Source of the DNA: Escherichia phage CR01
Length of the DNA: 45,236 bases
Sequence record: OR061068
Strand: one strand, 5' to 3'
Part shown: piece after piece, positions 7,226 to 39,840 of the stretch
Numbering within the stretch: the first letter of the stretch is position 1
Layout: the number at the start of each line of letters is the position of its first letter
Program-made: the position numbers and the translations under genes
Notes under the pieces: model-generated
What the model was told of the DNA's origin: nothing
Databases searched by the model: none
What the model saw: the letters and a program-made list of their open reading frames with translations, nothing else

Positions 7226-7252
7226 TAAGGCCCCGAAAGGGCCTTTTTCTTA
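7226..7252. terminator. bidirectional rho-independent terminator
   Basis: AAGGCCCCGAAAGGGCCTTTTTC: GC hairpin flanked by A-run upstream and T-run downstream; lies between convergent genes 6050..7222 (+) and 7250..7804 (-). Confidence 0.65.
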
Positions 7253-7804
7253 CAAACCTAATTTTAAAGCAATGTCTATAACGTTCGATTTAACATCACC
7301 TGGTATGATGTAGGTATCGTAATCTTTTACACCATCAACGCCATACAGATAACCACGGCTGTCCCCCTCAAATGTATAGCCTTCTCGGTGCAAGCGAACG
7401 ATTCTTACATCATGACCCGCGGCGACGATAGGGGCTACTTCACTGGCGAATCCACCGTCGGACACTACAAAAACTTCGTTGCCGTCTGGCAAGTTTTCAG
7501 CAAGATACTTACCGAAATAATCATCACCGAATACCGGTTTAATGAATTGCTCAGAAACGGCAATCATGAACTGACGACGGGACAACCCATTAAGAAAACC
7601 CTCTGGCTTTTCTTTCCGTGCCCGGTCGTCGTAGCCGTCGAGAAATTCGCGGTAAGCATCCGGGCCTAACGCTGCCAAAGCAATATCGAACATTGGATTC
7701 TTGAAACTGGTAGTTCCTTTCGCAAAGCCCATTTCTACCAGCGCCATAGCAAGTGTGTCTTTCCCGCAACCCGCCGGACCATTAAGAATAATTACCTTAG
7801 CCAT
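7250..7804 (-). CDS. P-loop kinase, dNMP kinase-like (T4 gp1-like) or polynucleotide kinase-like
   Basis: 184 aa; Walker A GPAGCGKDT at residues 8-16; downstream RRQFMIAV and VFVVSDGG...VRIVRLHREG segments resemble the T4 gp1 family as recalled; start overlaps the upstream stop (TAATG). Confidence 0.5.
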   Translation of the reverse strand: MAKVIILNGPAGCGKDTLAMALVEMGFAKGTTSFKNPMFDIALAALGPDAYREFLDGYDDRARKEKPEGFLNGLSRRQFMIAVSEQFIKPVFGDDYFGKYLAENLPDGNEVFVVSDGGFASEVAPIVAAGHDVRIVRLHREGYTFEGDSRGYLYGVDGVKDYDTYIIPGDVKSNVIDIALKLGL

Positions 7805-8289
7805 TATTTATCACTCCCGTGTGATTTTAAGTGTGTAGAGTTACCGTTACAGTCGTATCCAGTGACAGCGTGTGTGGTTATGCCGAGGCCTCGGAAATGC
7901 TTAATTACCGCCGGAGAATCATCGAATGCACACAAGATTCTCTCCAGCCCGATAGCACGCAACACCTCTTCTTTAATTGCGATGTCTTTTCTGTTGTCGT
8001 GTTTGCTGCGCATGATTAGCTGATAAAATTCGACGCGGTGGCGCTGCAACCACATTCTGGTTTCTTTTTCTGCATCATCACTACGGCCCGTTAAAATAAT
8101 AACGGCGTAGCGACGATTGAGGGCGTTACACAGTTCGATGTTATCTCTAATTGGTTCATCATCTTTGCACGCCATGTTAAAGGGCTTCCACGCCCACGTT
8201 TCGTTGTAGTTATCTTTCGGCAGCAGGTGCAAACGATGCGTACCATCAGCCAATGTCCCATCTAAATCGAAAATTACAATATCTTTCAT
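7804..8289 (-). CDS. HAD-superfamily phosphatase, T4 Pnk 3'-phosphatase-like
   Basis: 161 aa; motif I FDLDGTLA (DxDGT), motif II ILTGRSDD, RKD lysine motif, motif IV AFDDSP; order and spacing match the phosphatase domain of T4 polynucleotide kinase as recalled. Confidence 0.55.
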   Translation of the reverse strand: MKDIVIFDLDGTLADGTHRLHLLPKDNYNETWAWKPFNMACKDDEPIRDNIELCNALNRRYAVIILTGRSDDAEKETRMWLQRHRVEFYQLIMRSKHDNRKDIAIKEEVLRAIGLERILCAFDDSPAVIKHFRGLGITTHAVTGYDCNGNSTHLKSHGSDK

Positions 8290-9035
8290 CCCAGCATCTC
8301 CGGTGAAATAGTTAAACGTGCGACCTCGCCGTATTCGGCGCTATAAGTAATTACATTTGCACTACGGCCTGACATCCATCCGCCGCGGGAGGCGTAGGCA
8401 TCTTTAGCCGCCAGGGTGCGGTGTTGCTCAACAATCATGTTACGGCTTTCTACAATCTTTTGATGGTGGAGATGCCCGACATGTGCGTAACTGTACTCGC
8501 TTTCGCCAAATGCTTTTCTGAACTTAGCTATCATAATTGGCTCGACCACCTCAAACCGGCATTTATGCCCGTGTGTAAAGAACAGCGTCGTTTTGCCGTG
8601 TTGCACCATCTTGTAAACATCCGGCGACGTATCGACGAACACACGAGGCTCGTTGTCGTATAGCGTACTGAACATCTCAGCCAACCAAATCATACCTGAT
8701 TCGTCATGGTTCCCTTGCACGATAAGCAGGCGAACATTTTTATGTTTAACCAGAGCCATATCGACAACACGGCGGACCATACGAATCATGTAGCGGACCA
8801 GTTTCTGATAGCGCGTATCCGCGTCAAGAACATGACCACTCGCTGGCGTAACGGCATCCAGACTATCAAAGTGCGCGAAGTCACCAAGAAGGTTAATAAC
8901 CCCTGTTCCCGCATCTGGCGCTTTCTGAAACGCAGCATCAAACCACCGAGAGAACAGGTCTTCTGCAATCTTCATATCCCAGTCATCGCCGCTCTCGTCG
9001 GCCCATGCCAGCATACCGAGATGGAAATCAGACAC
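8286..9035 (-). CDS. calcineurin-like metallophosphoesterase (Mre11/SbcD-like), probably the C-terminal part of a fusion with the upstream HTH ORF
   Basis: Motifs SDFHLG (DxH), GDFAHFD, GNHDE, THGH, GHLHH in canonical order; annotated start is GTG with no beta-strand before the DxH motif, while the upstream frame is open. Confidence 0.6.
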   Translation of the reverse strand: MSDFHLGMLAWADESGDDWDMKIAEDLFSRWFDAAFQKAPDAGTGVINLLGDFAHFDSLDAVTPASGHVLDADTRYQKLVRYMIRMVRRVVDMALVKHKNVRLLIVQGNHDESGMIWLAEMFSTLYDNEPRVFVDTSPDVYKMVQHGKTTLFFTHGHKCRFEVVEPIMIAKFRKAFGESEYSYAHVGHLHHQKIVESRNMIVEQHRTLAAKDAYASRGGWMSGRSANVITYSAEYGEVARLTISPEMLG

Positions 9036-9412
9036 AGTGTAAAGGTTGAGTAGCTTGTCGTCTCGTTTGGTGCGAACGGCTTTAACAGGAGCAACGGGGT
9101 AATCTCCGACTTCATGCCCTCGATTACGGCCTTCATTAACTCGACCTGACGTTCCGCATCGGTGTCGGTCTTAACCCATTGCAGTTTAGTGTTGCCTAAC
9201 TCGTCCACAAGTGACGATGTTCCTTTAATCTTGTAGCCATCTGGCACAAGGTGGCTAACGTCCCGCCCGTGGCCTACGCCTTTCTTAGCCAGCTTCGCTT
9301 TACGGATGCGAATAACGCGGTCTGAGATGCCGTATTTACGGGCGATGTCGATATTCTTCATACCGGCGTTCAATTCTTCCTGTAACTGTTCGTCGGTTAT
9401 TTTCTTCCGGGC
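8972..9412 (-). CDS. HTH DNA-binding protein (N-terminal part of a probable HTH-metallophosphoesterase fusion)
   Basis: ATG 9412 with ribosome-binding site GAGGAAG; HTH-like DEQLQEELNAGMKNIDIARKYGISDRVIRIRKAK; the C-terminal 20 residues look non-native; adding one C at C-run ~9096-9099 joins this frame to the phosphoesterase. Confidence 0.45.
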   Translation of the reverse strand, partial: ARKKITDEQLQEELNAGMKNIDIARKYGISDRVIRIRKAKLAKKGVGHGRDVSHLVPDGYKIKGTSSLVDELGNTKLQWVKTDTDAERQVELMKAVIEGMKSEITPLLLLKPFAPNETTSYSTFTLCLISISVCWHGPTRAAMTGI

Positions 9413-9480
9413 CATGCTTACTTCCTCGTGTTTAGGATTTGTCCTATTTAACCACAGTGCATTCATTTAAATAAAGGCGA

Positions 9481-9807
9481 CTATTTACTTTCCGCGCCTA
9501 TCGCCCACCCGGTCATCACCATTTGCAGGCGGGTGGCTGTCAGTAGGCTGTAAAACGCGTCTCCGTTTTTCTCTACCGAACGTATTACAGAGTATGTTAC
9601 GGCTTGCGGAGGCAGGCCCGATTTACCAACCCCTACGGCAGCCTCACACTCGCGAACGGTAGAGTCCTTAAATGCCTTTACAATAGTAGGGTCGGCTTTA
9701 TCGAGCACACCAGAAGTCATAAGAACAGATTCACTAAATACCTGTTCGCACGGGGACCCAAAAGCAGCAAAAGACATAAACCCCAGAGCTAATACTAATT
9801 TACGCAT
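9481..9807 (-). CDS. small secreted/periplasmic protein (108 aa), first gene of the moron operon
   Basis: N-terminal signal peptide MRKLVLALGFMSFAAFG; gene sits immediately downstream of a conserved early promoter cassette. Confidence 0.5.
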   Translation of the reverse strand: MRKLVLALGFMSFAAFGSPCEQVFSESVLMTSGVLDKADPTIVKAFKDSTVRECEAAVGVGKSGLPPQAVTYSVIRSVEKNGDAFYSLLTATRLQMVMTGWAIGAESK

Positions 9808-9971: not shown

Positions 9972-10388
9972 ATGAAACTCTCTGATTTTTATTTTGCGGA
10001 CCGCCATGCTGCTGGCACTAAAATGCCCATCCTTCTGCCTAGCGGTAAAGATTCCGGTGAATGGTTGCAAGTCATCGGCCCTGATTGTGACGCTGGCGTT
10101 CGTGCTGGCCGTGCCTATACAACGGCAATTCGACGCCTTACGGAAGAACTTGCGCCGTTAGATAAAGAGTGCGAGGCACTGAATAACTGGGCGCGCTATA
10201 ACGATGAGAAGGGCTGGCGGGTGATGGACTTGAACAAGCAGCTTGCCGTTGAAATCGTCACCGGTTGGTCGTTCGACGAACCTTTCAGCAAAGAGGCACT
10301 GGCTAACCTGTTCGACCAGTACAGTGGGCTGGCGGAGGCCGTAGTTAAGCATCACACCGACAGTCGCGAGAAACTCTCGGAAAAGTAA
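9972..10388 (+). CDS. tail assembly chaperone (lambda G-like)
   Basis: 138 aa ORF immediately upstream of the tape measure gene; ends at a GAAAAG slip site with an open -1 frame downstream. Confidence 0.55.
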   Translation: MKLSDFYFADRHAAGTKMPILLPSGKDSGEWLQVIGPDCDAGVRAGRAYTTAIRRLTEELAPLDKECEALNNWARYNDEKGWRVMDLNKQLAVEIVTGWSFDEPFSKEALANLFDQYSGLAEAVVKHHTDSREKLSEK

Positions 10389-10750
10389 AAGCGCTGTATG
10401 AATTTGCGCAATGGTGCTTTGTCGACCGCCACAAACGTAAGCAATTCGACGACATAGCGGCAGGCCACCAGGCGGCTTTGATTGCAATGGGCGTGATTAA
10501 AGAACCGCAGATGAAAGAAGCGACGGGGCCTGAATGCCCCGTTTCTCTTATCGACGTGTTCGAGAAATACCGCGCCATTAAATTCCTACAGCGCGAAACA
10601 GATGATACTATCGTCATAATCCCGCGCGATGCGCTCAAATGGCAAGATTTGGTAGCGTTTCGTGATGTCGCCGGTTACGGCATAAGTTTGTTCGAAGCCG
10701 AGGTTATCATGGGCTTAGACGGAATATTTGAGGGCAGAGAAGATGGCTGA
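10379..10750 (+). CDS. T-extension of the tail assembly chaperone (G-T product via -1 frameshift)
   Basis: The -1 frame is open from 10349 through 10750 with no start codon until 10478; overlaps the G stop; conserved G/GT arrangement before tape measure genes. Confidence 0.45.
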   Translation, partial: GKVKALYEFAQWCFVDRHKRKQFDDIAAGHQAALIAMGVIKEPQMKEATGPECPVSLIDVFEKYRAIKFLQRETDDTIVIIPRDALKWQDLVAFRDVAGYGISLFEAEVIMGLDGIFEGREDG

Positions 10751-13054: not shown

Positions 13055-14444
13055 TGAGCGACTTATATTTCCCACGTAGCCTTAAGCCTATTGTGTCGAA
13101 AGGCTACTCAATGACCAGACGCAACAACGTCTGGAGTGTCGATTTAGCCGGTGGCGGAGTGCGTCAAGGCCGTGACACGTATTATGATGTGTTCCCAATA
13201 AGCGTAACCCTGATTACATCCGCAATGGGGCGGCAGGCGTTTCTGTCGTTCCTCGAGAAAGTCGATGGTGGCGCGTCAAGTTTCTGGATGGCGCACGACT
13301 TCGGCATGGGTATTGAGGATTATCAAGTCACCATTACATCCACCGTCGCCGAGTCCACCGAAGACGGGATTAACTGGACAATTACTTTCACGGCAACCGC
13401 TGAGAAATCACCGTTCCAGGACCTTGAGAACCAGTGTCTGATTAACAATCTGCCAGATTTGTATGGCTGTTATGGTGATTGCCTGGGCAGTTTCCTGAAA
13501 ATATACGCGAACTATGAAACGACGTTCCCGCGTATCTGGAGTGACGAAGGCCCCGCCGGTTATCCGCCGATTAACCTTCTGGCGTCGACTCTTGATAGCC
13601 GCATTGTGTATGACGGGCCACAGGTTTACTACATCAACAGAAATGGCAATCTTGTGCAGTCCGCCGCCAATGAATGGCCTCTTACGTTCATTGATGGTGT
13701 TGCGGTTGGGCGAGTTCCTCCTGAAAATGCTGCAGAAAATATAATAATTGAGTCTTCAAACATAACTGATGCGTCGTGGGATAAGCAGAGGACAACAGTG
13801 AGCTATGACGGAAGCCTGGTTTTATCTTTCGCCGTTACCCCAGATGAAAACACGGGCGTCCACACCATTAATCAGACAGTTCATGCGCAAATTCTAGAAG
13901 GTGAAAAATACACATTCAGTGTTTTTTTAAGGCTAATGGGTATAATTTTGCCAGGCTCCGCGCGGCAAATCAGGATACTACGCACATCTCTTCCGCGATA
14001 GTAGACCTCACATCCGGGACTATTGTCGATGGCGAAGCATATTCCACAATAACATCTATAGGAGGCGGATGGTATCGAGTTACTGAAACTATAACGGCAC
14101 CACCCGGCGGGTTTGACGGCCTCAATCTGTCGATGTGGATTTACGAAACAGCAACAATATCATCGTTTCCAGGGGATGGGGTTAGTGGCATTCTCGCATC
14201 CACTCCACAAATAGAAAAAACAGAGTTCTCCACGTCCCCAATAGTAACTGAATCGTCATCAGTAACACGCCCATCCGCAGGTGCAAAAGTAGCAATGAAT
14301 GGCGCAATAAGCATCGACATAACCTATTCCGACGGCTCTGTGGTAAACGTTCAGGCTGTTGACGGTTATGCCGCCATCCCCCAAGCGGATTCTTCGTGGG
14401 GCAGTAAATACATCACTCGTATCGACTTTAATGTGGGCGGTTAA
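13054..14444 (+). CDS. minor tail protein (distal tail protein-like), frameshifted at T-run 13922-13928
   Basis: Track ORFs 13054..14001 and 14133..14444 join in one frame when one T is added to the T7 run. Confidence 0.4.
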
Positions 14445-14447
14445 TTT

Positions 14448-14963
14448 ATGAGTCAGGAATCAGTAGAAGCAGCCTATCGCCGTAAGCTGGCCTCAAACCC
14501 CGACGGCGAGATGGACTACATCACGTTGCAAATCAGCCACCCGTTGCTGTCAAAGACGTACTATCTTGTGCGCGGGTTGCAGGAGCTTACAGCAACGCTG
14601 GAGACAGGAGAAACAATCACGTTCGAACCAACCCCGATGGAAGCGTCGGGTGCTTCGAACAATAGTGATATGGACCAGACGACGACGTTTACTCTACCTG
14701 ATATTCTCAATCAACTGGATGATGAGATGGATAAAATCCCGATGAGTAACACCGAGTTGCCGAAGTTTATTTTTCGCCGTTACGTCAGCACAGACCTGTC
14801 TTATCCAGCTGACGGCCCTGTCGTGTATGAGTTGCAGGCTATAAACCAAGAGAAGGGTGAGTTCTCTGCGGATGTCGGTACACCTATGCTGAACCAACGA
14901 AGCACTGGTATACTGATGACACCTAAAGAGATACCGTTATTACGCGGCCTGTTGACCACATGA
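14448..14963 (+). CDS. minor tail protein
   Basis: 171 aa ORF in the lambda-like tail tip gene order. Confidence 0.35.
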   Translation: MSQESVEAAYRRKLASNPDGEMDYITLQISHPLLSKTYYLVRGLQELTATLETGETITFEPTPMEASGASNNSDMDQTTTFTLPDILNQLDDEMDKIPMSNTELPKFIFRRYVSTDLSYPADGPVVYELQAINQEKGEFSADVGTPMLNQRSTGILMTPKEIPLLRGLLTT

Positions 14964-15325
14964 ATATTAACGACTACACGGGCATACCTTACGACTTTCG
15001 CAAACGCAATTGCTGGCATCACGTGCGCATTGTCCGCGCGGATGCCGGGTTAGAAACACCGGCGTTCGACGTTACAAGCCCAACGGCAATTAACGAAGCG
15101 TTTGACGAAGGCCACCGTGACACGAAGGGGCTTACGAAGATTGATAAGCCTGAAAACTTCTGCGCGGTGCTTATGGGGTATCGACGCGGCGGTCGTATCG
15201 TGTGGCATGCGGGGGTTTACTTCGACGGGATGGTGAGTCATTGCGAGCTTGCTTCACGTCAGGTGCGGCTTGACAGGCTGGCGGACCTCAGAGACACGTA
15301 CACGGAGATTGAATTTTGGCGATAA
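14960..15325 (+). CDS. tail assembly protein, NlpC/P60-like (lambda K C-terminal domain-like)
   Basis: 121 aa; Cys-His motif NCWHHV and later His/Cys (WHAGVYFDGMVSHCE); synteny with the K position. Confidence 0.4.
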   Translation: MNINDYTGIPYDFRKRNCWHHVRIVRADAGLETPAFDVTSPTAINEAFDEGHRDTKGLTKIDKPENFCAVLMGYRRGGRIVWHAGVYFDGMVSHCELASRQVRLDRLADLRDTYTEIEFWR

Positions 15326-17874
15326 TCCTGCACTACACGCGAAACGCTGATGGCGCTTTCGACCGTACAAAACACGTCGGGACGCCGATGGAGTTTGTCG
15401 TTAACCGTATTCCTGACGGCGTGCCTGTGCGCGTCTACCTCGGCGAAATTGGTGATGATACAGACGTAACGGACGACTTCGATGCGCTTAAAGACGAGGA
15501 CGCCGTGTACCACATTATTGAGGGAGCGGGTAGCGGGGCGCTTGGTGCCGTTAGTAAGGTATTTGGTTTTATCCTTAAGCCAATTGCCAAGTTGTTCGGC
15601 CTTAACACAGCCACCAACGCCAACTACACGGCGACTAACAACCAGACAACATCACCAAATAACAGCCTCACAGACCGCTCCAACAAACCACGCCCTTACG
15701 AGCGCTCTTATGACATCTGCGGGACTGTACAGACAATCCCTAACGACCTGATGCAGACGTATAAGGCGTTCAACTCCACCGGTGCTTTGCTGGAGTATTC
15801 ATACTACGACGCAGGGCGCGGGCATCTGTATATTGAGGCTGATGGCGTCACGGAAGGTGACACCCTGATAAGCGACATCACAGGTTCCTCTGTTGCCGTG
15901 TATGCGCCGTATACGTCGCCGAACAACACCACATCTCCGCAACTACAAATCGGCGACGTCATTGACCAGAAACTCTATGTGACATACTCCAACGACGACG
16001 TTGACGGTATTGTACTGAAAGCTCCAAACGACATTGGGGCTAACCCAAGCGCCGACGGGAAAGTTCGTTATGACTCGTCAACTAAAATAGGCTACATATA
16101 TGATAGCTCTGGGGATTCCGCCTTCACCGAGTTTCTTAACGTCGGAGACATCGCGGTCTTAACTGAATTTTGGGTTAAGGACGTTGCCGTTTTAGACGGG
16201 GAGTTTGAAGTTCTTTACGTGGACGATTTTGAGGTGAGAATAGCTACAGGCGGTACTAACCAATGGCCTAACCTCGGAAGCACCACCTACAACCTGACCG
16301 AGCAATCAATCACGTTTATCGGGCCTAAAGACACTTATGAACCCTCGCTTTCAGACTGGTACTACATGGTGCGGGGAGAAGTTGACCGGGTGCTCGTTAA
16401 CGTTGCAGGGCAAAACGGTCTCTACAAATACGACGGCGGCTATAACCGCACCAGCGTAACCGTAGAACTCCAGTACCAGATGATTGATTCTCAACGCAAC
16501 CCGTTGAGCGATATCTACACGGTACAGGCTACGATTACCGGTAATAGCACGGATTACGTCGGTACGACCATTTATGGGCAGTTGCCTACCGCATCGCGTT
16601 TCCGCGCCCGTATGCGCCGTATAACGAATTTTGATAAGGACTACGACGGAACGGTAAGCGACGAGATAACCTTCATCAACCTTTATGGGCAATCACTCGA
16701 CACCACCCCACACTACGGCAACAGAACTACCGTACATTGCGCCCGTAAACAGACGCCACGTGCCGCCAGCATAGACAACCCGGAACTGCGCATGATTGCG
16801 ACCGAGATGTGCTACAAATACTTAGGCAATGGGGTGTTCGATACAGTAATGTCGCCAAATACCCAGGCTGTGCAGTCACTAATTCGACTGGCGCGCGACC
16901 CTGCAGTGGGCAATCTGGAACTGACGACGGCAAACATGGACAAGTTACTTGCTGTGCAGGAAGAAATTGAGTCCTATTTTGGTAGCGAATTGGCCGGGCA
17001 ATTCTGCTACACATTCGACGACTACGACACCACGATGCAGGACATCGTCCAGACCATAGCGGAAGCCGTGTTCTGCACCGCGTACCGTAAAGGCGCGGAT
17101 ATTATGCTGCGATTCGACCGTCCGGTTGCGGGGCCTGAAATGGTGTTCACCCACCGCAGTAAAACGACCGGTACGGAGAAATGGACGCGCACGTTCAATG
17201 ATTCCACGACATACGATAGCCTTTCGTTCTCGTACATTGACCCGGATACAAACGTACAGGAAACGATTTATATCCCGGAAGAACTCGGCGCAAACACCGA
17301 GGAATACGAATCGAAGGGTGTACGCAACTACCAACAGGCATATTGGCTGGCGTGGCGTCGATACCAGCGCAACGCGTTAAGTAAAGTTGTCGTAGAGTTC
17401 GAAGCCACTGAAGAAGGCGCGCTCGCCACACCCGGCGGTGTAATCAGCGTGGTTAAAGGTTCACGTATCGCGCCACAGGACGGCTATGTTGTTGCCGTTA
17501 ATGGGCTTACGTTGACGCTGTCTCAGCCTATTACGTTTACTCCCGGTGACGACCACTCCATCATCCTCAAGAAGCGCGATGGCTCCGTGCAGAGTATTTC
17601 TGTTATCAAAGGAAGCCACGACCGCGAAGTGATTATGCTCTCCGCGCCGGAGGAGGCAATCTACACGGGGAATAGCGCACTAAAAACTGAGTTTTCATTC
17701 GGCAACGAAGCAAGGCATAATGCTCAGAAGATAGTTGTTTCTTCAATCGACCCGGGCGACGACCGCACGGTCAAGATTACGGGCTACAACTATGACGACG
17801 GATTCTATAAATACGACGGCGTCGCGCCATACGGCAGCGGTTTCTCCGACGGATTCAGCAATGGTTTTAATTAA
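15316..17874 (+). CDS. tail tip / host specificity protein (J-like), N-terminal region I-like
   Basis: 852 aa ORF after the K-like gene; N-terminal Gly-rich GSGALGAVSKVFGF segment. Confidence 0.5.
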   Translation: MAIILHYTRNADGAFDRTKHVGTPMEFVVNRIPDGVPVRVYLGEIGDDTDVTDDFDALKDEDAVYHIIEGAGSGALGAVSKVFGFILKPIAKLFGLNTATNANYTATNNQTTSPNNSLTDRSNKPRPYERSYDICGTVQTIPNDLMQTYKAFNSTGALLEYSYYDAGRGHLYIEADGVTEGDTLISDITGSSVAVYAPYTSPNNTTSPQLQIGDVIDQKLYVTYSNDDVDGIVLKAPNDIGANPSADGKVRYDSSTKIGYIYDSSGDSAFTEFLNVGDIAVLTEFWVKDVAVLDGEFEVLYVDDFEVRIATGGTNQWPNLGSTTYNLTEQSITFIGPKDTYEPSLSDWYYMVRGEVDRVLVNVAGQNGLYKYDGGYNRTSVTVELQYQMIDSQRNPLSDIYTVQATITGNSTDYVGTTIYGQLPTASRFRARMRRITNFDKDYDGTVSDEITFINLYGQSLDTTPHYGNRTTVHCARKQTPRAASIDNPELRMIATEMCYKYLGNGVFDTVMSPNTQAVQSLIRLARDPAVGNLELTTANMDKLLAVQEEIESYFGSELAGQFCYTFDDYDTTMQDIVQTIAEAVFCTAYRKGADIMLRFDRPVAGPEMVFTHRSKTTGTEKWTRTFNDSTTYDSLSFSYIDPDTNVQETIYIPEELGANTEEYESKGVRNYQQAYWLAWRRYQRNALSKVVVEFEATEEGALATPGGVISVVKGSRIAPQDGYVVAVNGLTLTLSQPITFTPGDDHSIILKKRDGSVQSISVIKGSHDREVIMLSAPEEAIYTGNSALKTEFSFGNEARHNAQKIVVSSIDPGDDRTVKITGYNYDDGFYKYDGVAPYGSGFSDGFSNGFN

Positions 17875-29757: not shown

Positions 29758-32014
29758 CTACTCCAAATCCTCCTCTGTCACCACCAGCATTTCATTCGGT
29801 TCGTATATTGTCTTCGGCCTTAATCTGTCCCCCATCTTTTCGGGTATCCGGTATGTGCCGGGGACAACTTCACCGTTAACATCACATCCGAGCATCAACT
29901 CCCCGTCTTTCAGCATCTTCTCGAGATGATGGTTGGTGATGGCGTGGTCCCCCGAGTTCGCCACTATCTGCCGTTGGGTAAAACCTCGTCCGGTGTCGTC
30001 GGACTGTTGCAGGTCTTCCAGCGCGGCGAGTATTGATTCCTTACGCCCTTCATCCTTCCCGCGTTTTACAGCATTATTTACGTTTTCTTTACCTTCTTTA
30101 GTTAACCCTTCTTCCCGCTCCTTCTCCTCGTCAGTTTTGAACGGCTCGAAGCCCCACGGCATCAGCACAAGCGCCTTGTGCGGCTCAGGCAGATCGAGGT
30201 TTACGATTGTGCCGTATTCCTCTGTGCTACCGAGGAACTCAACCGCACGGTATTCTTTCGGAGGCGGGGCTTCACGGAACTGTACCGACTCCAGAACCAT
30301 GCCAACCGTTTTCTGTTGAGGCCCATGCTTAAATTTCGAGTGGTATACGTTTATCTGGCGGCCGGTAGCGCGCTCAATTGTCAGCTCCACATCAACACCG
30401 GCATACAGCGCCCCGCTACCACGGGCTTTCTTTCCACCCTTAGGCGTATGGTGGACGACACCCACAGCGGCTTTAGTTGCGTCGCGTACTTTTTAAGGAT
30501 GGCGATAACTTTACCCATGCCAATTGCAGTTGATGAACTGTTCTCGTCGAACTTGTCAATTGTCAGGGCCAGCGTCTGGTTGAGGGTATCGAACGCGACC
30601 ATACCAATAGGCTCGTCCCCTGCAGCTTCACGCATCCTGCGGATTAGCGCGGGGATTTTTTATCACCATGCGCGGCGAGCACCTCACCCATATCAATGAC
30701 ATGTACGTAATCTTTACCTTCCTCGCCGTATTTAGCCGCGAGCGCGTCAATACGTGTGCGTGTAGCTGCGCCTCCCTCACCGTCGATATAGAAATGGTGG
30801 CAACGCTGGGTATCCGCCCCGGCAAACCGGTATCCGGCGGCGCTCAGGTACATCATCCCCAGCGTATAGAACGATTTGTACGTGCCGGATTCCCCAACAA
30901 TATCCCAGATACAATCTGACGGCATGTACCCCTCAACGACGAAATCAGCCTTTACCGGTTCCGGTAGCTCGTCCTCTTCTGAGTCATCATCGTCTTCCAG
31001 GTCGTCGAGGCTGCATGAAACAGATTCACGCGCACCCCATCCGATAGCCCCGGCGACTTCACTGAACGGCAGCCCAGTCGCATCACACGCGTATTTCCAC
31101 ACCTCTTTCGGCGACATGCCTTCGGTTGCCGTGATGTCGGTGTCGTGAATCATCGTTACGTTCGGCGCTTCATATCCCTCGCGCGGGAAGCATAGCAGGA
31201 AGTCGTCCGGACGCGGCGTCGGGTCGCTGTAGTTCTCTGCGTGTTCCGGTGTAGCTGGCATTTTTAGTCCGCGCGGCGTCATGATGCCACCGTACTCGAA
31301 CGCCAGTGCCTCAAACGCATCAGTAAACGCAGTGCGCAGTTCTTCCGGTATCTGGTAGTCAGATGCGCTGCTGATGTCAACGGCTGGGACGCCTTCCAGT
31401 AACTCATCAGGGTCAATCAGGTCGTTGCGGCGCGACCAGATAACAGTAGAGCCAACTGGCGGCAGGTACATCGGCTGCGACAGAGTGAACCCGCTGCGGT
31501 CCGCGCCCATGCCTTTGAAGAAGTGCTCCAGTAATCCATGGCGAACACGGATGATGTCGCCACCTTCAACCGGGCGGGCCAGCGGCATGACGACGCGAAA
31601 GCGCGGCGACTCGTCGGTATGTGATGCCGTGGTGTAGAGACACATCGCCTGGCGGCTGCGCTTAACCAGGCGCACCGCTTCCTGATACTCTTCCGGCGTT
31701 GTGCTGTCGAAGTCCAGGTACGCCAGCGACGATTTGCTTACAGACGCATCACAGCGATAGAAGAAGCCTTTGCGCGCCTGCTTAAAGTCACCGGTTTCCG
31801 GGTCTTTTACGGTGCTGTGCGTAGAGTCGCACGCGGCAGTGATATACCCCGGCGCGGTCTTAGGGCTAATCCCGTCACGAACGGCATCGAGCGGCTGGAT
31901 TAACTCTTTCAGGTCGTCCAGTGTTGCCGTGTGGGTAGTTCTGACGTTTATATCCTTTTTCTCTGCCCGCGCGTTGCGACGTGACCACGAGTAGGATAAA
32001 ATTACATCGGACAT
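29758..32014 (-). CDS. DNA primase-helicase (primase-like N-domain plus RecA/DnaB-like C-domain), split by two homopolymer frameshifts
   Basis: N-domain LAYLDFDS (DxD-type); P-loop-like GESGTYKS; C-region VVHHTPKGGKKARGSGALYAG resembles the DnaB H4 motif; frame changes at T6 run 30656-30661 and T5 run 30490-30494 repaired by adding one base. Confidence 0.6.
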
Positions 32015-38173: not shown

Positions 38174-38371
38174 ATGAAAGTTAAAGCCGCTAAAATTCTC
38201 TGGTTAGCCACCCTTGACTATGTGACAGAGGGTAAAGTGTATGATGTATACAACCCGACAGCTACTGGTTTCGGTTATATAGTCTCCGACGACGACTGCG
38301 ATATTTTCATAGACTTTGGTAACGATGAAGGTGATGGTTTCCACGGCGTTAAATGGGAGGTTGTAGAATGA
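38174..38371 (+). CDS. hypothetical acidic protein (65 aa)
   Basis: Track ORF; part of a string of ATGA/TAATG-coupled small ORFs 38028-39714. Confidence 0.35.
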   Translation: MKVKAAKILWLATLDYVTEGKVYDVYNPTATGFGYIVSDDDCDIFIDFGNDEGDGFHGVKWEVVE

Positions 38372-38519
38372 GCGAACAAGGTCAAGTAAGCCAACCATTA
38401 CGAGTAGGCCGCAAAGTTAGTCACACCCCGTTCCCTACACGCGAGGAACTGATGAAACGTAACAGTTTCCCTGGGCCGGACAAGAACAAGTATCTCAATC
38501 GCATGTGGGGAGAGAAGAA

Positions 38520-38717
38520 ATGACTGACCGCGAATACGAAAAGATGATGGTAGAGGCTGTTAACGGCGGCGTAGACATCAGCCACGTGATGCACGTCCTG
38601 AATACTAAAATCGCTGTAGCTGAACAAATGGTAGAGTCGCTTTACGAGACACGTCGTGAACTGATTAACCGCTTCAACCTTAACAAAGCCTCCGGTGATG
38701 GGTATGAAAGCGCCTGA
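38520..38717 (+). CDS. hypothetical protein (65 aa)
   Basis: ATG 38520 overlapping the upstream stop. Confidence 0.3.
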   Translation: MTDREYEKMMVEAVNGGVDISHVMHVLNTKIAVAEQMVESLYETRRELINRFNLNKASGDGYESA

Positions 38718-38886
38718 GCCAGTAGTTATAGATGGCGTCTTGTGGAAACCCTACTCGGTTAACCATATCGACGCCGACGGGAAGAAGTTCAGCTTCTACA
38801 TTTTTGCAATTAGCCGTGAGCACGCTGCGTGTGTAGTAGACGATATACGAGAAACGGCGTGGCTTGGCGATGAGATAGTGGGGTGA
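38695..38886 (+). CDS. hypothetical protein (63 aa)
   Basis: Track ORF. Confidence 0.3.
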   Translation: MMGMKAPEPVVIDGVLWKPYSVNHIDADGKKFSFYIFAISREHAACVVDDIRETAWLGDEIVG

Positions 38887-39137
38887 GAGCATGAGTCTTG
38901 AGGTTGTTATAAGTCTGGTTGGTCTTAGTTACTTCATTGGGCTATTGGTCGGTTTTCTGTGGGGTAGATACTAATGTTCAGCGACATCAACGCAGCAATC
39001 GAAGAAGCAATCTGGCGTCGCTACAACGGCGAGCAGCAACGGCACTTCTGCCTGGTGCAACGGGGTAACATGATTGCCGTAGTGCAGGACCGCGATAACA
39101 AATATCCGAATGCGATGTGGACAACGAGGAATTTCTT

Positions 39138-39335
39138 ATGATGAAACGTTTCTTTATCAGTTATGCCTGGACAAGCGTCGCAGGAACTGGCTTCGGCAAC
39201 TGTACGGCGTCACCAGAAAAAGGTGAAAAACTTACAGTAAAGGATATTCGATCGATTGAATCAGATGTGGCCTCGCGTATGCCACCCAACTCGAAGGTTG
39301 CAATTATATCCATAGTGGAGATTGCTGCAGAATGA
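39138..39335 (+). CDS. hypothetical protein (65 aa)
   Basis: ATG 39138 overlapping the upstream stop. Confidence 0.3.
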   Translation: MMKRFFISYAWTSVAGTGFGNCTASPEKGEKLTVKDIRSIESDVASRMPPNSKVAIISIVEIAAE

Positions 39336-39568
39336 TTACCAGCATTCCGAACCTGATAAAAGAATACGGCACGATGGCGGAGACATGCCGACAAACCGGC
39401 ATCAACGAAATGACGATTGCGAAGTACAGCAAAGACGTTGACTGCGAGCGCCACGTAATTTATAACAACCGTCTTATGACGCACGTTAAGACAAGCCCGG
39501 TGTTATTCACGCGCAGGGGCATCACTAAAACTGAGCAACGTATTGCTAAAGAGGAGAGTGGGGAATGA
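39332..39568 (+). CDS. hypothetical protein with HTH-like segment (78 aa)
   Basis: AETCRQTGINEMTIAKYSKD resembles a helix-turn-helix. Confidence 0.3.
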   Translation: MITSIPNLIKEYGTMAETCRQTGINEMTIAKYSKDVDCERHVIYNNRLMTHVKTSPVLFTRRGITKTEQRIAKEESGE

Positions 39569-39840
39569 TTGAGTTTGATGATGTTTTATTTGAGGAATAC
39601 CGCGGAACGGTGTTTTTGACTGTGATGTACGGTGTTTACTCAAAGTCCTTTAACGGGTTTTCGAAAGCAGATTGCATAAATCAATTACTGCAATGGGTGG
39701 TAAGCCGAAAATAGCCACACCACAAGCCCTCTACGGAGGGCTTTTCTGTACATCCCGCCCAATCCCCTTATATAATCCCTTTAGACGCGTAGGGCGCGTC
39801 TGGTGCGCTCTGATGGTCAGACGCATATGCAAGGGATTCT

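What the first reader, a model, noticed from the sequence alone, without database searches (positions are those of the whole stretch)
8286..9412. HTH protein and metallophosphoesterase are probably one fused polypeptide
The phosphoesterase ORF starts at a GTG directly on the DxH motif (SDFHLG) with no preceding beta-strand, which is atypical for this fold. The frame is open upstream and reads KRDDKLLNLYTVSDFHLG, supplying the expected hydrophobic strand. Adding one C to the C-run at ~9096-9099 on the coding strand joins the HTH ORF (ATG 9412, good ribosome-binding site) to this frame, giving a ~376-aa HTH-nuclease/phosphoesterase fusion. The same single-base repair fixes about 15 other genes here. 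A DNA-binding domain fused to an SbcD-like phosphoesterase without an SbcC partner is unusual.
Basis: inference. Interest (0 to 1): 0.6.

Follow-up and report, generated by a model that had tools for sequence, protein, structure and literature searches.

The report
One phage nuclease gene, split by error
The two adjacent open reading frames are a single, already well-known phage gene (a DNA-binding helix-turn-helix domain fused to a metallophosphoesterase) that looks split only because this error-rich genome assembly lacks one C in a run of Cs, so the finding is correct but ordinary.

Summary
On the minus strand, an HTH ORF (ATG 9415) and a metallophosphoesterase (MPE) ORF (GTG 9035, directly before the DxH motif) overlap in different frames. 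Adding one C to the CCCC run at 9096-9099 joins them into a 376-aa protein.

Seven relatives differ from the window at this site by one gap column. Six of them have no other length difference and read an uninterrupted 1131-nt ORF. The codons there (ACC CCC, ACA CCC, ACA CCA) are synonymous Thr-Pro, which excludes conserved programmed frameshifting. The exact repaired protein exists in independent public assemblies.

The window is almost certainly Escherichia phage CR01, a Kagunavirus-like siphophage. Its assembly carries 24 isolated 1-nt deletions against 4 insertions relative to phage UTEC10. These break the major capsid, portal, large terminase, DNA polymerase and helicase genes, so the split is most likely a sequencing artefact.

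The fusion is not unusual. The protein matches PHROG 704 ("DNA repair exonuclease") end to end. It occurs unsplit in about 1,950 phage records and is a core gene of Drexlerviridae. All five MPE motifs are intact, and the fold is closest to the PolD-DP1, Mre11 and SbcD nucleases. It lacks a capping domain and a Rad50/SbcC partner. Its biochemical function is untested.

The parts
8286..9415 (-). The whole HTH-metallophosphoesterase gene as it stands in the window. It is 1130 nt including the stop, one base short of the 1131 nt found in relatives. Once repaired it encodes 376 aa.
   Evidence: single gap column against six intact relatives. (376-aa translations of the UTEC10 and K1H genes). (the exact repaired protein is in public assemblies).
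9096..9099 (-). C-run on the coding strand (G-run on the plus strand) that lacks one base. This is where the reading frame breaks, at Thr106-Pro107.
   Evidence: (event at 9100: GGGG- against GGGGG).
9421..9427 (-). Shine-Dalgarno-like GAGGAAG, 5 nt upstream of the ATG at 9415-9413.
   Evidence: read directly from the sequence. Relatives start at the same Met.
9284..9394 (-). N-terminal three-helix HTH DNA-binding domain, residues 8-44.
   Evidence: AF2 helices 8-16, 21-28 and 32-44. N-terminal segments of family members hit HTH_28, HTH_23, Sigma70_r4_2 (4e-11) and GerE (1e-9). The profile hits the DesR and NarL HTH domains in the PDB.
9104..9235 (-). Conserved middle module: a beta-hairpin (residues 61-85, motif KG.S.L....G....QWVKT) followed by a helix (87-104). 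It is specific to this family.
   Evidence: AF2 secondary structure. Conserved G74 and W80 in alignment A2.
8289..9062 (-). Metallophosphoesterase catalytic domain, residues 119-376. All five motifs are present: D130-x-H132, G178-D179, G-N236-H237-D, H282 and G314-H-x-H317.
8972..9095 (-). Out-of-frame tail of the annotated 164-aa 'HTH protein' (LLLLKPFAPNETTSYSTFTLCLISISVCWHGPTRAAMTGI*), produced only by the missing base.
   Evidence: The 164-aa product occurs once in 15 billion proteins, as WKW35163.1 of phage CR01.
7804..8289 (-). Downstream gene for a HAD-type polynucleotide 3'-phosphatase-like protein (161 aa). Its ATG overlaps the MPE stop codon (ATGA).
   Evidence: phrog_415 at 2.5e-65.
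7250..7804 (-). Downstream gene for a P-loop kinase-like protein (184 aa; dNMP-kinase PHROG). It is the last gene of the minus-strand cassette.
   Evidence: phrog_139 at 4.1e-45.
7227..7245 (.). Bidirectional terminator-like GC hairpin that closes the minus-strand cassette.
9481..9807 (-). First gene of the cassette: a 108-aa protein with a hydrophobic N-terminus and unknown function.
   Evidence: phrog_14165 at 5.5e-55.

Best explanation
Positions 8286-9415 on the minus strand hold one gene for a 376-aa protein. It has an N-terminal HTH DNA-binding domain, a family-specific beta-hairpin/helix module, and a catalytically intact binuclear metallophosphoesterase domain. It appears as two overlapping ORFs only because the deposited assembly (Escherichia phage CR01) lacks one C in the homopolymer at 9096-9099. 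That is a base-calling or assembly error, not a mutation or a recoding signal.

The protein belongs to the widespread phage family PHROG 704, annotated 'DNA repair exonuclease / metallophosphoesterase'.

Inferred mechanism, not shown: the HTH tethers the enzyme to DNA, and the MPE domain acts as a stand-alone, Rad50-independent, divalent-metal-dependent phosphodiesterase or nuclease on nucleic-acid ends. It is transcribed with the replication and nucleotide-metabolism accessory genes.
For: One gene:
- A single gap column separates the window from six intact relatives across 1130 nt. Synonymous Thr-Pro codons (ACC CCC, ACA CCC, ACA CCA) span the site.
- The exact repaired 376-aa sequence exists in independent assemblies, whereas the frameshifted 164-aa product exists only in CR01.
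- The top 120 homologues are all 376 aa, or 406/411 aa.
- PHROG 704 is matched end to end: residues 4-375 against profile positions 2-389 of 390, E 2.7e-166.
- 1,958 of 2,061 phage records cover at least 80% of the protein in one place, down to 29% identity.

Artefact:
- 11 other genes change frame, including the major capsid protein, portal, TerL (twice), DNA polymerase (twice) and helicase (twice).
- The window has 24 isolated 1-nt deletions against 4 insertions. Nine of the deletions fall in reference runs of at least 4 nt.
- The sister deposit M01, 98% identical, has CCCCC here but three different indels elsewhere in the same gene.

Function:
- MPE residues D130, H132, G178, D179, N236, H237, H282, G314 and H317 are invariant.
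- The AF2 model has pLDDT 92.1, with strand beta1 at 119-129.
Against: No reads are available, so a genuine inactivating 1-nt deletion in this probably non-essential gene cannot be strictly excluded for this one site.

Confidence: 0.93

Rival explanations
1. The 1-nt deletion is real. In phage CR01 the gene is a pseudogene, or it yields a free HTH fragment with a 41-aa nonsense tail, because the MPE is dispensable in the laboratory.
For: The gene is accessory in character. Its genomic neighbourhood varies. Fragmentary versions of it are annotated in several other deposited phage genomes (Salmonella phage 36, phiJLA23, Jk06, KpV79).
Against: The same assembly has the same kind of 1-nt deletion in indispensable genes: major capsid, portal, TerL, DNA polymerase and helicase. 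A plaque-forming phage cannot carry all of these, so the error rate of the assembly is enough to explain this site. The closest relative, M01, has five Cs here. The fragments in other deposits are equally compatible with sequencing errors.
Confidence: 0.05
2. Programmed recoding: a -1 ribosomal frameshift or transcriptional slippage at the C-run produces both a short HTH protein and the HTH-MPE fusion.
For: The two frames overlap at a homopolymer. A genuine programmed frameshift is annotated only about 600 nt away, in the tail assembly chaperone genes of relatives (joined CDS in K1G and K1H).
Against: All intact relatives read straight through in one frame. K1G, K1H and three metagenomic contigs have no homopolymer at the site (ACACCAG, ACACCCG). 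There is no X XXY YYZ slippery heptamer (A UUA CCC CGU). From general knowledge, four Cs are far shorter than the runs known to support transcriptional slippage. The exact in-frame protein exists elsewhere.
Confidence: 0.01
3. Two genuinely separate genes, as annotated in the deposit: a small HTH regulator and an MPE that starts at the GTG.
For: This is how the CR01 record annotates the HTH product (WKW35163.1). M01 is also annotated in two pieces, one of them labelled 'transcriptional regulator'.
Against: No homologue starts at the GTG. A GTG start removes strand beta1 of the MPE fold. The MPE frame has 46 open codons upstream with no start codon, and 22 of them match homologues. The M01 split lies at a different position, so it is an independent error. 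About 95% of the best 150 cluster representatives are full-length.
Confidence: 0.01

Closest known systems
PHROG 704 'DNA repair exonuclease' / 'metallophosphoesterase' of Guernseyvirinae and Drexlerviridae. Examples: K1G gp22 YP_009168802.1, K1H gp19 YP_009168851.1, UTEC10 WWY66523.1, KLPN1 gp56.
   Same: The architecture, length (376 aa) and gene position are identical. Identity to Kagunavirus relatives is 94-99%. The profile match is full-length.
   Different: Nothing beyond the missing base in this deposit. The family's name is an annotation, not a tested function.
Mre11 / SbcD nucleases (T. maritima Mre11 3qg5 and 4o43, S. aureus SbcD 7dog, E. coli SbcD 6s6v)
   Different: Sequence identity is only 12-17%. 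There is no capping domain and no Rad50-binding helices, because the chain ends with the MPE core. No SbcC/Rad50 gene is present in the genome. An N-terminal HTH plus beta-hairpin module takes their place.
PolD small subunit DP1, a 3'-5' proofreading exonuclease (5ihe)
   Different: Identity is 12%. There is no DP2 partner and no OB-fold domain. The phage carries its own family A DNA polymerase.
Mycobacteriophage A10ZJ24 Gp48 metallophosphoesterase (PMC12287305)
   Same: A phage-encoded stand-alone MPE with phosphodiesterase and nuclease activity that damages host DNA. This gives a functional precedent for a Rad50-independent phage MPE.
   Different: Gp48 starts directly at motif I (D10) and has no HTH. 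Homology beyond the superfamily level was not tested here. It is an analogy only.
Pseudomonas putida nuclease MPE (6nvo)
   Same: A stand-alone Mn-dependent MPE nuclease. Some database names for close homologues derive from it (P0034).

Membership tests
PHROG 704 (phage HTH-metallophosphoesterase, annotated 'DNA repair exonuclease') | Full-length match to the family profile | tested here: met
   Repaired protein residues 4-375 match profile positions 2-389 of 390, E 2.7e-166, 554 bits.
PHROG 704 (phage HTH-metallophosphoesterase, annotated 'DNA repair exonuclease') | N-terminal HTH and C-terminal MPE on one polypeptide of about 370-420 aa | tested here: met
   Met after adding one C, giving 376 aa. 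The architecture is shared by the 120 best homologues, by 142 of the 150 best cluster representatives and by 1,958 phage records.
Calcineurin-like metallophosphoesterase superfamily | Five metal-binding motifs: DxH, GD, GNH[DE], H, GHxH | tested here: met
   D130, H132, G178, D179, N236, H237, H282, G314 and H317 are invariant in 57 diverse sequences. All are present in the window translation.
Calcineurin-like metallophosphoesterase superfamily | Pfam Metallophos or Metallophos_2 score above the gathering threshold | tested here: inconclusive
Mre11/SbcD | C-terminal capping domain next to the nuclease domain | tested here: not met
   The AF2 model ends with the MPE core at residue 376. Only 186-193 residues align to Mre11 or SbcD chains of 319-362 residues.
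Mre11/SbcD | Rad50/SbcC ATPase partner encoded with it | tested here: not met
   No such gene appears among the 73 annotated genes of the collinear phage UTEC10, nor next to the gene in K1G, K1H, KLPN1, RcPeripeteia, VAP7 or Vibrio phage 49E27-1. The window's own ORFs were not scanned exhaustively.
Mre11/SbcD | Match to curated SbcD or Mre11 sequence models | tested here: not met
   NCBIfam returns no SbcD or Mre11 model. The PDB profile search gives T. maritima Mre11 at only E 0.29.
Programmed -1 ribosomal frameshift / transcriptional slippage site | Conserved slippery sequence, with relatives also needing the shift | tested here: not met
   Relatives are in frame, and four to five of the seven lack the homopolymer.
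Anti-phage defence proteins (PADLOC models) | Match to any defence-system protein model | tested here: not met
   No hits for the MPE or its three cassette neighbours.
Pnkp-type end-healing module (kinase + phosphatase, with or without phosphoesterase) | Obligate co-occurrence of the MPE with the HAD phosphatase and P-loop kinase genes | tested here: not met
   The trio is present in Guernseyvirinae and in KLPN1. It is absent in Rhodobacter and Vibrio phages. It is also absent in metagenomic relatives whose MPE is 99% identical; these carry a 76-aa ORF instead.

The most novel reading that the evidence does not exclude
PHROG 704 is a core gene of T1-like and K1G-like phages and occurs in more than 2,000 sequenced phages. 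It may be a mechanistically distinct, Rad50-independent DNA-end nuclease or phosphodiesterase that is guided by its own HTH. It might process phage replication or recombination intermediates, or attack host DNA as mycobacteriophage Gp48 does. No member has been characterised. This concerns the family, not the window. For the window itself, the only novel reading is that the 1-nt deletion is genuine.
Probability: 0.3. Interest if true: 0.4.

Novelty: already known. Interest (0 to 1): 0.1.

Why it matters
The main value is for annotation quality. It shows that the deposited CR01 genome, and its sister M01, carry many homopolymer deletions that fragment at least a dozen genes. ORF-level oddities in this window should therefore not be read as biology. 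The HTH-MPE protein is a very common, conserved and still uncharacterised phage enzyme. Knowing that it is one polypeptide with intact catalytic residues is a precondition for any functional work, but RefSeq annotation of related phages already reflects this.

Tried and rejected
- Sequence searches of the repaired protein and of a 57-sequence profile against PDB chains gave nothing significant.
- NCBIfam gave no family and PADLOC gave no defence model.
- Literature searches for the family found no functional study. The terms tried were phrog_704, 'DNA repair exonuclease' with Kagunavirus or Drexlerviridae, Guernseyvirinae with phosphoesterase, and metallophosphoesterase with HTH and phage. They returned only genome-announcement mentions and one pangenome statement.
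- The mycobacteriophage Gp48 paper is an analogy only, because Gp48 has a different architecture.
- I considered that the MPE forms an obligate end-healing module with the downstream HAD phosphatase and P-loop kinase. I rejected this because the neighbours are absent in distant phages and in 99%-identical relatives.
- I considered programmed frameshifting and rejected it on the alignment.
P0001, which is 99% identical, was used instead.

Full report
**What is in the sequence**

On the minus strand, an ORF at 8972-9466 encodes MNALWLNRTNPKHEEVS-MARKKITDEQLQ.... The Met used by relatives is the ATG at 9415-9413, preceded by GAGGAAG at 9427-9421. A second ORF, 8286-9035, starts at a GTG and reads M-SDFHLG..., so it begins two residues before the DxH metallophosphoesterase (MPE) motif.

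The two ORFs overlap by about 125 nt in different frames. The MPE frame is open for 46 codons upstream of the GTG and contains no start codon. Its last 22 codons read PVAPVKAVRTKRDDKLLNLYTV. Everything else in the description is accurate.

**Is it one gene?**

Megablast places the region in Kagunavirus-like (Guernseyvirinae) coliphages. In UTEC10, K1G and K1H the same interval is a single 1131-nt CDS of 376 aa, annotated 'metallophosphoesterase' or 'DNA repair exonuclease'.

A DNA alignment shows CCCC in the window against CCCCC in M01 and UTEC10, and ACACCAG in K1G and K1H. I then aligned the whole gene with seven relatives, including three metagenomic contigs that encode a 99%-identical protein. 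The window differs from all six intact genes by exactly one gap column, at the C-run. The codons spanning the site are synonymous Thr-Pro variants: ACC CCC, ACA CCC and ACA CCA. The frame therefore continues through this site under purifying selection, with or without a homopolymer.

An exact-sequence look-up settles the point. The repaired 376-aa protein, made by adding one C, is already present in independent public assemblies. The frameshifted 164-aa product occurs once, as WKW35163.1 'hypothetical protein [Escherichia phage CR01]', on a 45,236-nt contig, which is the length of the window. The window is therefore almost certainly the CR01 deposit.

**Artefact or biology?**

I mapped UTEC10 proteins onto the window with tblastn. 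Besides this gene, 11 genes switch frame:
- major capsid protein
- head-tail connector
- tailspike
- DNA polymerase (two breaks)
- a nuclease
- primase/helicase (two breaks)
- a replication protein
- large terminase (two breaks)
- portal
- minor capsid protein

At the DNA level the window has 24 isolated 1-nt deletions against 4 insertions relative to UTEC10. Nine of the deletions lie in reference homopolymers of at least 4 nt, and several others lie next to runs in the window. A plaque-forming phage cannot carry broken capsid, portal, terminase and polymerase genes, so these are assembly errors of the homopolymer under-calling type. The 9096-9099 deletion belongs to the same class.

The sister deposit M01 comes from the same accession batch, is 98% identical, is labelled 'partial genome' and has 104 fragmentary CDS. 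It has five Cs at this site but three other indels in the same gene, and it is split at a different place. That is the pattern expected from independent random errors.

Programmed recoding is excluded as a conserved mechanism. Relatives are in frame, most lack the run, and there is no slippery heptamer. Without reads I cannot strictly exclude a real 1-nt deletion at this one site. I give that about 5%.

**What the protein is**

The repaired protein matches PHROG 704 ('DNA repair exonuclease') end to end at E 2.7e-166. Other evidence on the size and uniformity of the family:
- The 5.8-billion-protein search found 2,373 homologues. The best 120 are all 376 aa, apart from a few of 406 or 411 aa.
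- tblastn against 50,697 phage records found 2,061 records, and 1,958 of them cover at least 80% of the protein in one place. They extend down to 29-31% identity in Vibrio phages and include Drexlerviridae, Casjensviridae and Ackermannviridae.
- An exhaustive HMMER scan found 4,680 clusters at 50% identity. The best 150 are nearly all 360-480 aa, with alignments that reach into the N-terminal region.
- A published pangenome analysis reports the 'DNA repair exonuclease' as persistent in 508 of 522 Drexlerviridae, often followed by polynucleotide kinase and dNMP kinase genes (PMC13164509).

The fused architecture is therefore the norm for a very large phage family, not an oddity.

**Anatomy**

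An alignment of 57 diverse members has invariant D130, H132, G178, D179, N236, H237, H282, G314 and H317. These are the five MPE metal-binding motifs, and all are present in the window.

AlphaFold2 gives a confident model (pLDDT 92.1, pTM 0.78) with these elements:
- three helices at 8-44 (the HTH)
- a lower-confidence linker
- a conserved beta-hairpin (61-85) and helix (87-104)
- the MPE sandwich, whose first strand is residues 119-129

N-terminal segments of family members hit many HTH Pfam families: HTH_28 in 18 of 52 members, Sigma70_r4_2 with a best E of 4e-11, and GerE at 1e-9. Their profile hits the DesR and NarL DNA-binding domains in the PDB.

**How it probably works (inferred)**

The protein lacks the Mre11/SbcD capping domain. 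No Rad50/SbcC gene is present in the collinear genome or beside the gene in any relative inspected. So it is not a member of the Mre11/SbcD family.

The best-supported reading is a stand-alone, metal-dependent phosphodiesterase or nuclease that its own HTH brings to DNA. I put about 0.55 on a nucleic-acid substrate. The small margin over non-nuclease MPEs is the main caveat.

A functional precedent for a Rad50-independent phage MPE nuclease is mycobacteriophage A10ZJ24 Gp48 (PMC12287305). That protein has no HTH, and homology beyond the superfamily level was not tested.

**Context**

The gene is the second of a four-gene minus-strand cassette inserted between plus-strand tail genes:
- a 108-aa protein with a hydrophobic N-terminus (9481-9807)
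- the HTH-MPE gene
- a HAD Pnk-phosphatase-like gene (7804-8289, with an ATGA stop/start overlap)
- a P-loop dNMP-kinase-like gene (7250-7804)
- a bidirectional terminator (7227-7245)

The MPE-HAD-P-loop trio recurs in Guernseyvirinae and in the Drexlerviridae phage KLPN1. It is absent in Rhodobacter and Vibrio phages. It is also absent in metagenomic relatives whose MPE is 99% identical; those carry a 76-aa ORF instead. The MPE therefore does not depend on these neighbours.

**Verdict**

The cause is an assembly error in an error-rich deposit. The resulting protein is an ordinary member of a known, already correctly annotated phage family whose biochemical function has not been tested. The window-specific interest is low.

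Noticed in passing
whole window; breaks near 1798, 3752, 19314, 23700, 24047, 27568, 30492, 30636-30680, 32256, 40829, 41394, 42639, 44252: Eleven other genes are split across reading frames relative to phage UTEC10: major capsid, head-tail connector, tailspike, DNA polymerase, a nuclease, primase/helicase, a replication protein, TerL, portal and minor capsid. Most breaks are 1-nt deletions at or next to homopolymers, and isolated deletions outnumber insertions 24 to 4. The assembly as a whole needs polishing.
   Followed up: partly
whole window: The window appears to be the GenBank deposit of Escherichia phage CR01. Its 164-aa frameshifted ORF product equals WKW35163.1, on a 45,236-nt contig. 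The sister record M01 (OR061069, 'partial genome', 104 fragmentary CDS) is 98% identical and has its own, different indels.
   Followed up: partly
window 38367-39719: This 1,353-nt block is 100% identical to the left end of phage UTEC10 (positions 1-1353), while flanking regions are only 90-96% identical. The junction at 39719/39720 corresponds to the UTEC10 genome ends. This suggests either a recent recombinational exchange (mosaicism) or a conserved terminal region.
   Followed up: no
window 9972-10750 (+ strand): These are the tail assembly chaperone genes: a 138-aa ORF at 9972-10388 and a downstream ORF to 10750. In RefSeq K1G and K1H the equivalent genes are annotated as a joined CDS, that is, a genuine programmed frameshift. 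It lies right next to the artefactual frameshift studied here.
   Followed up: no
L011-L013 (metagenomic contigs), positions 3484-3714 of L011: Relatives whose HTH-MPE protein is 99% identical lack the HAD phosphatase and P-loop kinase genes. They carry a 76-aa ORF between the MPE gene and the tail tube gene. The two downstream genes are therefore an exchangeable accessory module.
   Followed up: partly
window 8559-8576 (- strand), residues about 280-292 of the protein: The window reads FFTHGHKCRFEVVEPIM where UTEC10, K1G and K1H read FFHHGHKARFDAIEPVM. M01 has two extra bases and a premature stop in this stretch. The Thr variant is also present in the independent protein P0001, so it is a real polymorphism next to the motif IV histidine, not an error.
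   Followed up: partly
phage database record PQ474795.1 (Escherichia phage vB_Eco_AMO_3701M): This record has exactly the same length (45,294 nt) and the same hit coordinates (14389-15693) as M01, but it is only 87% identical to the window in this region. That is an odd coincidence and was not examined.
   Followed up: no
BFVD hits (Salmonella phage 36, phiJLA23, Jk06, KpV79): Several other published phage genomes annotate only 100-260-aa fragments of this same protein. This gene seems to be split repeatedly by sequencing errors in deposited genomes.
   Followed up: no
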